From the NCBI GenBank assembly GCA_038087875.1, contig CM075994.1, positions 1,676,001-1,740,000 on the forward strand: DNA of 64,000 nt, written 5' to 3'. Of this stretch, positions 42,801 through 48,800 are shown piece by piece. A program made the position numbers and the translations under genes. The notes under the pieces were generated by a model. That model saw only the letters and a program-made list of their open reading frames with translations, ran no database searches and had not been told where the DNA came from. This DNA comes from Malacoraja senta (Eukaryota). Position 1 is the first letter of the stretch. Each line of letters starts with the position of its first letter.

Positions 42801-45800
42801 TTTTCTGACAAGACTTCTGTTTACCAGAATCCCTGGTTACCTAACCCTAATTGGACTTTGATCCAGATCATGATTAGTCAGACTCCCTGTGACTTTTCAG
42901 TCTCCCTATCCTATCCTCATTTCTCCACCGAATTTGTCTTCATCCCCAATTTTTTTATAACATAGTTGCTTGTCAGAAAAAGGATTCCCCCGGGGTAATT
43001 TTGTTTTGCAATGCCCCATAGGCTCTTTCCACCATCCCAGATGCCTGTGGGTGATGTACACAGTGAAATTGCTGTCGGATATAAAAATGTGTACATATTT
43101 CCTTATTAATAGTGGCAATAAAATGGGGACCATTGTCCGAGCTTATGACAGTAGGTAGGCCAAACCTGGTAATAACTTCCCTTAACACCAATGTTACTGT
43201 AGTCTCAGCAGTATCATTAGTGGTTGGTAGAGCTTCAATCCACCTGCTAAATAAATCTAAAATAACTAAGCAATATTTATAACACTGGGCCCTTGGCATT
43301 TCAATAAAATCAATCTGTATGCATTCAAACGGTCGTGATGGCATTGGCGTCACCCCTGAGGGTATCCTAATTGGTTTGCCTGGATTATTTCGTTGGCAAA
43401 TTTTACATTCAGAGGCCTGCTTCAGTGCCTCTTGCCGGATTTTTGGGTGCCACCACGTTTCCTTTGTCATCCTTATCATTCCCTCCTTACCAGCATGGGT
43501 AGGTGAGTGAATATATGTTAGTAAAACTGCATCAGATACACCAACTTGTCCAAGCGGGGTGAGCCGAATCAATGGCACAGCCCTCTTGTTTCCATAGTTG
43601 TTTTGGGTTATCAGAGGCGTCCCTCTGTAATGTACATACTTCCCTCATGTTTGGCAGGACCGTTCTATTTGCTAGCATCTTATCTTTCCACTTCCCTGGA
43701 TCCTCTCTCATCACTTCGCCCCTCCTAAACATTGGTCATTGGTTTACGGCATCTTACTTCAAAGATGTGACTAGCTGTTTCTCTCTTCTGTCACTTCCTC
43801 ACTTGGGAGACAATGTTATGGTATTTATTATCTCAATACCCCAAAACCTGAGAGGCAACTTAACTTGCCTTTCTGTATTATTCTACTGGAGAAAAGCCTG
43901 ATTTGTGACTAAATATAAGCTGTAAGCTTTTCTTATATTTTTAACATAATTCAGCTTTATCACAGGTACCCGCCACCCTCTGTGTAAAAAATTGCCCCAC
44001 ACATTTCCTTTAAACATTGCCCCGCACACCATAAAGCTATGCCATATAGTATTTGATCTTTCCATCCTGGGAGAAAAACAGTCTATAGACACGAAATGCT
44101 GCAGTAACTCAGCGGGACAAACCGCATCTCTGGAGAAAAGGAATGGCTGACGTTTCGGGTCGAGACCCTTCTTCAGACTGATGAAGATGCAGGTGGATCT
44201 GGATCACCAACTACCTGACTGGACGACCACAATATGCCAGGCTACAGAACTGTGTCTCGGACAGTTTCTGTAGCTCAATACTGACAAGACTAAAGAATTA
44301 GTGGTGGATTTTAGTCGGAGAGGAACACCCCTGTCCCCAGTCTCCATCAATGGTGTGGATGTGCAGTTTACCAAGGAGTACAAATACCTTGGAGTGCACC
44401 TGGACAGTAAACTGCATTGGTCCAGGAACACTGAGGCCCTGTCCAAGAAGGGACAGAGCAGGCTGTACGTTTTGAAAAATTGGTGGCTGGCTCCGCCCTG
44501 AGGGCAGAGTTGGATTCATGGGAGGTGGTCTTAGAGGGTTGGATGCTCCGCAGTTTGAGGAGTACCTTCAGCAAGATGCAGTACAGGATGCCACAGGTGA
44601 TCCTTCTTCCCAGTGGCTATCAAACTGTACAACTCCTCCCCCATTTGTCGTGGAGTAGACTGACGCCTCTCCCCAAATCTTTGCACATCCCCAATCCTTT
44701 CCACTCATCACTTTAATTTCATGTATCTTGTGTTTTATGACTGTCGGCAAATCAATTTCCTTCCTGGGATAAATAAAGTTCTATCGTATCATACGATGAG
44801 GACGAGGGGGACTCTGTCCCTGTTACATCTGAAGGGGGGGAGGGGGAGAAGCAAGAGCGGATCTGCGGGATATCAAGGAGACCCTCGTGTAGGCTTCTTG
44901 TATGATGGAAGAGGGAAACCCCGTTCCCTAAAGAATGAGGACATCTCCGATATCCCAGTATGGAAAACCTCATCTTGGGTGCAGATGCGACGTAGACGGA
45001 AGAATTCGGAGTAGGGGATAGTCTTTACAGGCAGCAGGATGCGAAGACGTGTAGTCTAGATAGTTGTGGGAGCCAGTGGGTTTATAATAGATGTCAGTTG
45101 ATAGTCTGCCTCCTGTGATGGAGATGGTGAGATCAAGAATAGGGAGATGTCAGAGATGGTCTAAGTTTTATTTTCTTTTCAAAGGGACGTGAAAGTGAAC
45201 GTTGCTCTGCCCACTGGAGATATTTTGAATTCTACGTCCTGGCGTCCAAGCTGACAGAGTTTCATGATAAAGTGTGGTAGAACATTTAATGAGTCCAAAC
45301 AGTAACTTCACCTTGCGAGTTCAAAAGAGCACAGTATGAGTATCTTGCTAATATCAGTGTAAAGCTGTAATCTGCTTCATAATTGCATCCAGTTTCTGAG
45401 GTAGCGATTCCCATGTCTGGTTAAATCTGCGCATGCTGCTATCTCACCTTATAATCAGCGATGATGGTCGCCTGTTCCTCAAGAAAGTATGTTGAGAAAC
45501 TTGCTATATTTGCAGGTTCATGAACCGGAGGGAAAGGCACCACAGGAATTTAACGCGAGAATGTTAGCAAGACTGCAATTTATTTCCCCCGGATTTAAAA
45601 ATGTGGTGGAATTACATCAAGTGTGTTTAATTGTCATAGGTACCAGCACAATGAAAATCTTACTTGCAGCAGCTTAACGGGCCTGTAAATGCAATACGCA
45701 CAGACAAATAAAATTAGTTTAGCTTAGAGATACAGCGCGGAAACAGGCTCTTCGGCCCACCGAGATTTAATTTGTAGTAGCTTAGCAATTGACTCAGTGA

Positions 45801-48800
45801 ATCAGATGTTGACTAGAAATGTAGAACTGAGTGTGTTTTGCTGAGTATATTTTATTTCACATGTGCACTTAGTTAAGGAAATTTTGGAAATGCAAGTAAA
45901 CAACAATTTGTTCGTATATCAACTGAAGATTGAAAGCTCTGTATAGCAAGGCTGGTCAATATAGTATGTGTGTAATTCCATTTCAAGTGTATAGCTAGTT
46001 TGGTGATGTACTAAATATTGACTTGACAGAATTTTTATAAATACAACTTCATCAGATCCTTCAGAAAACAGTGAGTAGACAGTATTGTTTCATGAGGTTT
46101 TTAAACTGTCTGCTTCCAAACAGTATCTAGTTCAAGTAAGTTCGATGTGCTTAAAGATTTGTCTCTGATTAACCAGTTCATATCTAATGGGCAACACACA
46201 AATTCTTCCATTTCAGTCACCTTTCAGGTTGAAAGCTGTAAAGATGCAGAAGTGTTTGTGGCTCTCTCTTTTTTTTTTGGTGTGTTATTACGATCTTTCC
46301 CAGATGCACAGCTTCCTTCAACCCTTCTTGCCTTGTCATCTCTCTCTTCCAAAAAGGTGTTCCTTGAAAACATGTACATTGTTTAATGGACTTGACACTT
46401 ATCCTCGCTTGGCTCCATATCTGATGTCTGATAATGTTCTTGGGAACCACCCTAGGGCGTTTTTCAGCAACAAGGATGTCACATAAATTCAAGTGTTTCA
46501 TTCATATGTGACATATGATGAAAGAATGGATCGACTGGGCTTATATTCACTGGAATTTGGTAGGATGATCTTATAGAAACATATAAAATTCTTAAGGGAT
46601 TGATTGGACAGGCTAGATGCAGGAAAAATGTTCCCCATGCTGGGGGAGTCCAGAACCAGGGATCACAGTTTAAGAATAAGGGGGAGGCCATTTATGACTG
46701 AGATGAGGAAAAACTTTTTCAGCCAGAGAGTTGTGAATCTGTGGAATTCTCTGCCACAGAAGTCAGTGGAGGCCAATTCACTGGATGTATTCGAGAGAGA
46801 GTTAGATATAGCTCTTAGGGCTAACGGAATCAAGGGATATGGGGTGAAAGCAGGAACAGTGTACTGATTCTGGACGATCAGCCATGATCATAATGGTGGT
46901 GCTGGCTCGAAGGGCCGAATGGCCTACTCCTGCACCGATTTTCTATGTTTTTATGTAAGTGTCCCAGTGACAGTCCATGCCTTTCATAATTATATATACT
47001 TCTATCAGGTCTCCCTCAACCTCCGGTATTCCAGAGAAAGCAATCTAAGTCTGTCCAACCTCTCCCTGCAGCTAATACGCACTAATCCAAGCATCATTCT
47101 GGTAACCTCATTTCCACAGCCTCTACATCCATCATGAGGGGTAAGACTCAGGGACCATAAAGCTATCAGAGTTACAAATAAATCATCACAGATCATTACA
47201 TTGCATTTACCGCAATAGTAAGATCACAAGAGAATATTTAAAAAGGAAATTTTGTTGGCAAACTTAATCTGGTATGGCCGCTTGGTCAGCATTAAACTGG
47301 TATTTATCCAAAAGTCTCCTAAATATCTGCCTCCACTACCATGCGCCTACCAGGCAGCCACCACCCGACATCTCCATTAAACATTGCTGCGCACACCATA
47401 AACCTATGCCATAAAACATTCGATTTTTCCATCCTGGGAAAAAGGCTCTGACTGGCTATCCTATCTATCCATCTTTCAGAACAATTTATTACACTGTGGA
47501 ATGACCAAAAGGAAAAGCTTATCACAGCAATATAAATGTTTAATCATAATTTAAAGAGAAAACTGACGTGCTGCAAAAATCATAATCATCACAAATAAAA
47601 CAAATACCAGCTTCATAAGTCTTTTCATAAATTCTAGGAGCAGAATGAGGCCATTTGGCCCATCAAGTCTACTCCGCCATTCAATCGTGCCTGATCTATC
47701 TTTCCCTCAAACCCATTCTCCTGCCTTCTCCCCAAACCCCCCCAACACATTTACTACTAAGAATCTGTCAATCTCCACCGTAATATCCACTGACTTGGCC
47801 TCCACAGCCATCTGTGGTAATGAATTCCACAGATTCACTGACTAAAGAAATTCCTCATCTCCTTTCTAAAGGTAAACTGTTGACAGTGTATTTGAACAAG
47901 AAAAGGCTAGCTGTCAGAGTCATGCTATCTTTTGCAATGCATGCAATAGAAAATTATGCATTACCTGCACTCTGTGGCCTTTGGGGGTGATATATATGGG
48001 AAGAGCAGCTCGGTTAACTTCCTGAGATACTGCAGCTCATCTCTGCGGCTTCTCACAGCCAGGTGTAGATCCGGCCCATACTCTTCCAATGCAGCCTGCT
48101 GTAAATATTCGCTGTGCTTTACTGGAGAGAAAAGAAACAGCTTACGTCAGTCACTCAAACACACGTCCAGATTATTCCAATGCTAAAGCTGGACTTCAGA
48201 TAAAACAATCCAGGAATACTACACTTTAGTTTAGTTTGGAGATACAGCGCGGACACAGGCCCTTCGGACCACCGAGTACGCGCCGACAAAGCAATCCCCG
48301 TACACTAACACTATTCTACACACACTAGGGATGTTCCCAGCTGGAGACTAAAACAATTATAAATGCACCCACACACATATATATATTATATATAAATATA
48401 TATATATATATATATATATAAATATTATAAACAGCATCTTTCAAAGTCTCTTAAAAGGTTTTGTTCATTAGTTTTGTTTATTGTCACATGTACCGAAATC
48501 AGTGAAAAGCTTTTTGCTGCGTGCCATCCAGTCAGGGGAAATACTATACATGGTTGCAATTAAGCCGTCCACAGTGTACAGATACAAGATAAAGGGAATG
48601 ACATTTAGTGCAAGATAAAGTCTGGTAAAGTCCGACGAAAGATAGTCTGAGGGTCTCCAATGAGGTAGATGGTAGCTCAGGAACGCTCTCTAGTTGATAA
48701 TAGGATGGTTCAGTTTCCTGATAATAGTTGGGAAGAAACTGTCCCTGAATCAAGAGGTGTAGGTTTTCACACTTCGTGCCTCTTGCCTAATGGGTGAGGG

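What the first reader, a model, noticed from the sequence alone, without database searches (positions are those of the whole stretch)
45170..46500. SNX14 carries an inverted copy of its own exon 19 - intron 19 - exon 20 start inside intron 8
Seen: 45183-45266 is the reverse complement of exon 19, followed by intron 19, the first 30 nt of exon 20 and a piece of intron 20 (source ~11485-13360, about 32 kb away). Inference: both copies lie in one pre-mRNA in opposite orientation, so about 1 kb of mostly unique sequence could form an intramolecular duplex. It would cover exon 19 and its splice sites and loop out exons 9-18. This could act as a built-in antisense regulator of the PX-domain exons, a back-splicing driver or an ADAR substrate, and it also predisposes to a ~32-kb inversion.
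Basis: partly seen in the sequence, partly recalled or inferred. Interest (0 to 1): 0.8.

Follow-up and report, generated by a model that had tools for sequence, protein, structure and literature searches.

The report
Backwards SNX14 exon copy beside LINE
In a ray-like fish, intron 8 of the SNX14 gene holds an old, decayed, backwards copy of the gene's own exon 19 region joined directly to a truncated jumping element that likely pasted it there, and it is probably a harmless relic rather than a working RNA switch.

Summary
Observation confirmed. Window 45171-46505 is an inverted copy of SNX14 13361-11483 (78 differences in 1044 columns) inside intron 8. It is real: contigs of two samples match its left junction exactly, and its right half is in 6 of 6 related organisms laid. 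(1) It abuts a 5'-truncated LINE of the same strand and similar age (3.2% vs about 3.7% per lineage), with a weak 5-bp target-site duplication around both. (2) It has an 820-bp microhomology jump. (3) It holds a 269-bp single-copy piece absent from the source. (4) All three splice dinucleotides are mutated (unexplained, post hoc p 0.0004-0.003). Best reading: co-insertion during LINE retrotransposition, by a template switch to unspliced SNX14 RNA (local DNA is nearly as likely), now a drifting relic. A regulatory duplex is not supported. The arms lie 31.8 kb apart, intron 8 is probably spliced out before exon 19 is made, divergence is neutral-like, and the exon-19 half was not seen in relatives. 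No RNA data were available. The scan noted similar inverted exon relics in other genomes.

The parts
45171..45182 (+). Copy of the end of intron 18 (polypyrimidine tract and exon 19 acceptor; AG changed to AA at 45182)
45183..45266 (+). Antisense-placed copy of exon 19 (84 nt, PX domain; 5 differences in 84; frame still open in its own phase)
45267..45874 (+). Copy of the 5' part of intron 19 (donor GT changed to AT at 45267; 40 differences in 593; includes a short SINE-like repeat near 45715-45765)
45875..46143 (+). 269-bp piece absent from the present source intron; single-copy in the genome; likely ancestral intron 19 later lost from the source (inferred)
46144..46291 (+). Copy of the 3' part of intron 19 (exon 20 acceptor AG changed to AC at 46291)
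46292..46321 (+). Copy of the first 30 nt of exon 20 (0 differences), ending at a TCAA microhomology jump that skips source 12497-11679
46322..46505 (+). Copy of a piece of intron 20 (source 11678-11483); found only here, at the source and in the source's allelic duplicate
46509..46956 (+). 5'-truncated LINE 3' end (end of RT ORF, short 3' UTR, TTTCTATG-type tail); same strand as the copy's mRNA sense; 14 of 443 differences from the majority of 29 sisters. CR1/HER1 name is recalled; RVT_1 shown in a longer sister
45162..45166 (+). TAAGT, left copy of a candidate target-site duplication (also the last bases of the older retroelement)
46956..46961 (+). TAAGT(G), right copy of the candidate target-site duplication; the extra G continues the older element as in 8 of 11 sisters
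44797..45166 (-). Older retroelement fragment forming the left flank (30 of 363 differences from 11 sisters; 'Penelope-like' is recalled, no Pfam hit)
11483..13361 (-). Source: SNX14 end of intron 18, exon 19 (13349-13266), intron 19, exon 20 (12523-12423), part of intron 20
39931..47963 (-). Host intron 8 of SNX14 (between exon 8 at 48122-47964 and exon 9 at ~39930)

Best explanation
The stretch is an inverted partial copy of SNX14's own exon 19 to intron 20 region that likely entered intron 8 in one event with the adjacent 5'-truncated LINE and is probably an inert relic today. Inferred steps: the LINE began target-primed reverse transcription at the end of an older retroelement in intron 8 and copied ~450 nt of its own 3' end. 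The cDNA then likely switched to unspliced SNX14 RNA being made at the same locus, entering in intron 20. It jumped ~820 nt at a TCAA microhomology (or lost that piece soon after), and copied on to the polypyrimidine tract before exon 19. Joining left a probable 5-bp duplication (TAAGT). The source intron probably lost 269 bp later, and the copy has drifted since. Because it lies antisense to the gene it cannot be spliced in, and it is probably removed with intron 8 before its partner is transcribed.
For: Shown: the LINE starts 3 nt after the copy's end, and the chance of such contact is ~0.001 given 6 fragments of this LINE in the window. Both parts have the same polarity, as one cDNA would. 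Ages agree: 14/443 for the LINE vs half of 78/1044 for the copy (Fisher p=0.65), and both are younger than the left flank element (30/363). TAAGT stands at both outer ends. The LINE junction is bridged by >=31 letters in relatives B and C, and the internal jump in 6 of 6 relatives, so both are early features. Copy-type contigs differ from the window by 4.0-5.0%, like flanks (C 28/704 vs 36/613, p=0.12; B 38/853 vs 20/400, p=0.67). Precedent: one somatic L1 co-inserted with nearby precursor mRNA (PMC10191854); 5' extra nucleotides copied from flanks and 5-bp TSDs in zebrafish L2-clade LINEs (PMC4245944).
Against: RNA versus DNA template cannot be told apart: polarity gives only about 2:1, and no spliced junction is present. 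The TSD is weak: under my loose test 7 of 29 sister LINEs and 128 of 812 shuffled pairs share >=5 nt, and its first T may be LINE tail. No empty site was seen. The LINE age is biased low, because the sisters were picked as best matches. No clear microhomology between LINE and source lies at the exact switch point. The loss of 3 of 3 splice dinucleotides (p 0.0004-0.003, post hoc) is not explained by neutral drift. Inertness rests on indirect arguments from human and other non-fish data, with no RNA data.
Confidence: 0.45

Rival explanations
1. DNA-templated insertion: the same relic, but copied from nearby genomic DNA by a repair polymerase (template switching during break repair or replication), either while the LINE insertion was being resolved or independently of it.
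For: Introns are retained and no spliced junction is present. The source is only 32 kb away. A microhomology jump and a few extra bases at the LINE junction fit end-joining repair. PMC4245944 reports 5' extra nucleotides derived from flanking genomic DNA.
Against: Full independence from the LINE needs a ~0.001 coincidence of position plus matching age and strand. The flank-derived additions in PMC4245944 are described as several nucleotides, not 1.3 kb from 32 kb away.
Confidence: 0.4
2. Working antisense element: whatever its origin, the intron 8 copy pairs with exon 19 in the pre-mRNA and promotes in-frame skipping of this 84-nt PX exon, an exon 9-18 circle, or A-to-I editing.
For: It is the strongest inverted pair in the window and the predicted duplex is very stable. 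The geometry leaves the exon 18 donor and exon 9 acceptor free. Exon 19 is a multiple of three. The right half persists in 6 of 6 relatives.
Against: The distance is 31.8 kb (PMC4066801), splicing order is against it (PMC4333389), 63 other inverted pairs exist, and divergence is neutral-like. The half that would mask exon 19 breaks off at 45856 in C and E and is not seen as a second contig in C, E or F, where depth over exon 19 is single-copy.
Confidence: 0.07
3. The copy was once read in the sense direction (inserted in sense and later flipped, or lying in a plus-strand transcript), so selection removed its splice sites.
For: 3 of 3 splice dinucleotides are mutated, each at its G (permutation p 0.0004-0.003). 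If spliced after exon 8 the copied exon would give an early stop.
Against: The pattern was noticed after the fact. No inverted repeats flank the block inside intron 8. The direct TAAGT repeat at both ends argues against a flip of the insert alone. A sense copy harmful enough to be purged would rarely spread first.
Confidence: 0.06
4. Assembly artefact.
For: A real assembly problem lies next door: a 69-kb, 99.8-99.9% identical inverted duplicate of the SNX14 3' half bounded by N gaps.
Against: The copy differs from the source by 7.5% and has unique junctions, exact contigs in two samples, and orthologous copy-type contigs in six other organisms.
Confidence: 0.01

Closest known systems
L1 insertion co-inserted with nearby precursor mRNA by RT strand switching (Nam et al. 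2023, PMC10191854, Extended Data Fig. 9g; passages read)
   Same: LINE 3' part joined to a piece of a gene transcribed near the insertion site; introns retained; template switch proposed.
   Different: That is one somatic human L1 event. This one is old, inherited, shared by several ray-like organisms, involves a non-L1 LINE and lands inside the donor gene; its RNA template is inferred, not shown.
5' extra nucleotides and 5-bp TSDs of zebrafish L2-clade LINEs ZfL2-1/ZfL2-2 (PMC4245944; abstract and passages read)
   Same: CR1-group-type LINE with added locus-derived sequence at its truncated 5' end and a short TSD.
   Different: Those additions are several nucleotides from the immediate flank; here 1.3 kb from 32 kb away, with an internal jump.
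Chimeric 3'-LINE-1 insertions with U6, Alu or mRNA fragments (bioRxiv 10.1101/2025.02.02.635956; passages read)
   Same: 5' cellular sequence fused in sense to a 3' LINE segment within one TSD.
   Different: Their mRNA chimeras mostly carry spliced first exons, 11-17-bp TSDs and poly(A) tails; this carries unspliced internal exons and introns of the host gene.
Intronic inverted-repeat pairs that drive A-to-I editing or back-splicing (inverted Alu pairs; PMC4066801, abstract and passages read)
   Same: Two complementary arms in one pre-mRNA, looping out exons.
   Different: Arms are gene-derived rather than repeat-derived, one arm is an exon with its splice sites, and the spacing (31.8 kb) is about 40 times the reported editing decay length.
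Templated insertions from replication or repair template switching (FoSTeS/MMBIR; recalled)
   Same: Local inverted copy with microhomology jumps.
   Different: They need no LINE; here a same-age, same-strand LINE end is fused to the copy.

Membership tests
LINE chimeric (template-switch) insertion | Cellular sequence directly 5' of a 5'-truncated LINE 3' end with intact tail | tested here: met
   3 nt between copy end 46505 and LINE start 46509; tail at ~46940-46956
LINE chimeric (template-switch) insertion | Both parts in the same transcriptional sense | tested here: met
   Copy reads as SNX14 sense on +, LINE ORF on +
LINE chimeric (template-switch) insertion | Same age of both parts | tested here: met
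   14/443 vs half of 78/1044, p=0.65; LINE figure biased low; junction shared with B and C
LINE chimeric (template-switch) insertion | One target-site duplication around the whole insert | tested here: inconclusive
   TAAGT at both ends, but 128 of 812 shuffled pairs reach >=5 nt in the loose test
LINE chimeric (template-switch) insertion | Empty pre-insertion allele in an outgroup | not testable with these tools
   All 7 organisms laid carry at least part of the copy; joint tables were flooded by repeats
LINE chimeric (template-switch) insertion | RNA template (spliced junction or RNA-only feature) | tested here: inconclusive
   No spliced junction; introns retained; A>G 10 vs T>C 14 shows no editing trace
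Processed pseudogene (retrocopy) | Introns removed | tested here: not met
   Intron 19 and parts of introns 18 and 20 are present
Functional intronic complementary element (editing, circRNA or splicing regulator) | Stable complementarity within one transcript | tested here: met
Functional intronic complementary element (editing, circRNA or splicing regulator) | Conservation or slower divergence of the pairing arm | tested here: not met
   Right half no slower than flanks (p=0.12, 0.67, low power); exon-19 half not seen as a second contig in relatives, breakpoint at 45856 in C and E
Functional intronic complementary element (editing, circRNA or splicing regulator) | Editing, skipping or back-splice reads in RNA | not testable with these tools
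   No RNA holder listed
CR1/HER1 LINE (the adjacent element) | RT-encoding non-LTR element placed in the CR1 clade | tested here: inconclusive
   RVT_1 in a sister, >8,600 candidates; clade and HER1 name recalled, no tree built; HER1 named as a shark/ray LINE in PMC3747384

The most novel reading that the evidence does not exclude
A non-L1 LINE captured its host gene's own nascent pre-mRNA and fixed it backwards inside that gene, creating a heritable self-antisense element. In the lineage that kept the exon-19 half, it pairs across 32 kb to tune skipping of an in-frame PX-domain exon or to make an exon 9-18 circle, with mismatches selected at all three splice sites.
Probability: 0.05. Interest if true: 0.7.

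Novelty: new member of a known kind. Interest (0 to 1): 0.27.

Why it matters
As a relic it is modest. It is a dated, inherited example of a LINE insertion that seems to have dragged in 1.3 kb of its host gene, a process reported in the papers I read as a single somatic L1 event or as short 5' additions. It also offers a natural comparison: related organisms appear to differ in whether they keep the antisense exon-19 half, so RNA from them would test directly whether a 32-kb-range exon-masking duplex does anything. If it did, it would show that retrotransposons can build gene-specific antisense regulators in one step.

Tried and rejected
Misassembly of the copy: rejected. RNA tests: no RNA holder listed, which is no evidence either way. 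Rfam at 44500-47200: 0 matches. The 269-bp piece as a mobile element: 1 match in the genome, itself. Its presence in a relative's source intron was not seen: source-type contigs skip it in E, F and I, probably also C; none was listed there for B and D. Gene conversion in organism B: considered because one contig of depth 43.7 covers exon 19 and then splits in two; dropped because alleles explain it equally well. Missing cover of the left half in relatives is not proof of loss; only the unlike loose ends at 45856 in C (64 letters) and E (29 letters) are positive evidence. TSD test on 29 sister LINEs: no clear excess over shuffled pairs. Editing trace in the copy: A>G 10 vs T>C 14, G>A 14 vs C>T 9, no signal. 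Other strong inverted pairs in the window are repeats: LINE pairs, and terminal inverted repeats of Tc1-like elements (name recalled) at 53848-55447 and near 23379/26765. The left flank element got no Pfam family. Literature listings for SNX14 + shark + intron, inverted duplication + antisense + exon skipping and internal gene duplication showed no paper on this locus; only titles and abstract starts were seen. A search with five editing terms returned 0 papers. No earlier notes exist for this genome.
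Full report
Observation. The window's strongest off-diagonal self-match is 45171-45874 against 13361-12666 in reverse (91.5%, 988 bits), with two further blocks at 46139-46321 and 46313-46505. A gapped alignment resolves one copy, 45171-46505, of source 13361-11483: 78 differences in 1044 aligned columns. A search with exon 20 returned SNX14, with ray proteins at the top. The window's exons are 85-90% identical to 6 cartilaginous-fish or unnamed proteins and 76% to coelacanth (7 proteins compared), so the organism is probably a ray or skate. 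tblastn of two ray proteins placed the exons on the minus strand: exon 8 at 48122-47964, exon 9 at ~39930, exon 19 at 13349-13266, exon 20 from 12523.

The copy starts in the polypyrimidine tract before exon 19. It carries a 269-bp piece (45875-46143) that the source lacks and that occurs once in the genome. It jumps from base 30 of exon 20 to intron 20, skipping 820 bp at a TCAA microhomology. Three bases after its end begins a 5'-truncated LINE 3' end on the same strand (46509-46956). A longer sister encodes RVT_1; the CR1/HER1 name is recalled (PMC3747384 lists HER1 as a shark/ray LINE, one table passage seen; PMC13343379 gives 22-34% CR1-group DNA in elasmobranchs, passages seen). On the left the copy abuts an older retroelement. 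All three splice dinucleotides in the copy are changed: 45182 G>A, 45267 G>A, 46291 G>C.

Reality and age. Of 24 listed runs I laid 8, from 7 organisms; all are contigs and the tables were cut. X1 and X2 (organism A, two samples) have contigs with 0 differences across the left junction (45114-45395) and the 269-bp piece. Copy-type contigs bearing the 269-bp piece and the internal jump occur in 6 of 6 relatives: B 38/853 differences, C 28/704, D 34/750 over three pieces, E 28/667, F 36/727, I 30/648. The LINE junction is bridged by >=31 letters in 2 of 6 (B, C); D and F run 25-28 letters into it. Source-type contigs skip the 269 bp in E, F and I (3 of 6 directly). The duplication (7.5% between copies) is therefore somewhat older than the split of these organisms (4-5%). 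Over exon 19, a separate copy-type contig was seen in 0 of 6 relatives. In C, E and F the one contig is source-type at single-copy depth, and in C and E the copy-type contig runs into unlike letters left of 45856. B and I show paired contigs further along intron 19 that may be alleles or the copy.

How it arose. The LINE differs from the majority of its 29 closest sisters at 14 of 443 sites (3.2%, biased low), against about 3.7% per lineage for the copy (p=0.65). The left flank element is older (30/363). With 6 fragments of this LINE in the window, contact within 5 nt has a chance of ~0.001. TAAGT stands at both outer ends (45162-45166, 46956-46960), and the next right-hand base continues the older element as in 8 of 11 sisters. 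This is weak: 7 of 29 sisters and 128 of 812 shuffled pairs reach 5 nt in my loose test. Together these point to one insertion: LINE reverse transcription, then a switch to SNX14 sequence. Same-sense polarity fits unspliced nascent RNA but favours it over DNA by only about 2:1. Precedents seen as passages: one somatic L1 co-inserted with nearby precursor mRNA (PMC10191854), flank-derived 5' extra nucleotides and 5-bp TSDs in zebrafish LINEs (PMC4245944), and L1 chimeras with cellular RNAs (bioRxiv 2025.02.02.635956). No supplements were read; they may hold closer cases.

What it does. In isolation the arms would pair very stably and loop out exons 9-18, and exon 19 is an in-frame 84-nt exon. 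Against function: the spacing is 31.8 kb, while Alu editing decays with ~800 bp (PMC4066801). Exon 19 appears 6.6-26.6 min after exon 9 at 4-1 kb/min, while reported splicing takes 30 s to 5-10 min (PMC4333389; not fish data). There are 63 inverted pairs of >=100 bp in the window, including a 98% LINE pair flanking exons 8-9. Divergence in relatives is no slower than flanks (p=0.12 and 0.67, low power). The exon-masking half seems dispensable in relatives. For inversion, the longest perfect run is 59 bp, short for ectopic recombination by recalled thresholds. No RNA run was listed, so none of the RNA predictions was tested.

Against my reading. The triple splice-site loss has a permutation probability of 0.0004-0.003. 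It was noticed after the fact and should be neutral in antisense, yet I cannot explain it. The RNA template, the TSD and the origin of the 269 bp are inferred. The right half has survived in all 7 organisms laid.

Context. A third genomic match lies in a 69-kb, 99.8-99.9% identical inverted duplicate of the gene's 3' half whose ends coincide with N gaps, most likely an uncollapsed allele. The scan's notes (unchecked AI notes) list several inverted exon copies in introns of other genomes, mostly read as relics, so the class recurs. I found no paper on this locus in the listings.

Verdict. Real, old and well defined; a new member of a known kind (LINE-coupled templated insertion leaving an intragenic inverted exon relic); regulatory role unsupported. 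Interest 0.27.

Noticed in passing
G000:C18:1523818-1593178 vs 1702105-1632956 (window 1-26105 is part of one arm): 69-kb inverted duplicate of the SNX14 3' half, 99.8-99.9% identical, each end at an N gap: probably an uncollapsed, misoriented allele. X1 depth is equal over source and copy, but X2 shows ~5 over the source vs ~2.2 over copy and flank, so a true duplication in some individuals is not excluded.
   Followed up: partly
window 41068-43962: Provirus-like element in intron 8: 289-bp direct repeats at 99.65% around an integrase ORF on the minus strand (42973-43644; rve and Integrase_H2C2). Looks young and internally shortened. Observed only.
   Followed up: partly
window 45182, 45267, 46291: All three splice dinucleotides of the antisense copy are mutated at their G although the copy cannot be spliced in this orientation; permutation p 0.0004-0.003, post hoc.
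   Followed up: partly
window 38208-38574 and 48843-49209: 98% identical inverted LINE pair, 10 kb apart, flanking exons 8 and 9: a closer candidate for a circRNA or an inversion than the finding itself.
   Followed up: no
window 53848-55447; 23379-23605 and 26542-26765: Tc1-like DNA transposons (name recalled) with ~210-230-bp terminal inverted repeats in introns 5 and 16.
   Followed up: partly
window 23064-23228: Match to an alternative segment of one ray SNX14 isoform (P0006 aa 475-529) in intron 16 contains a stop here; it may be a repeat-derived exon in that species.
   Followed up: no
window 45204-45215 (run X3, organism B): A contig over exon 19 shows three single-base gaps that read as a 3-nt in-frame deletion just before the VYRRY motif; not seen in the shark and ray proteins checked.
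   Followed up: no
G000:C18:1490991-1491994: About 1 kb of a near-perfect 6-bp tandem repeat inside the scaffold; unit not examined.
   Followed up: no
L016-L017, G000:C18:1538817-1539027: The allelic duplicate has a ~220-bp insertion in intron 20 relative to the window (at 11116/11115) and only one substitution over the 2.4 kb around exons 19-20.
   Followed up: no
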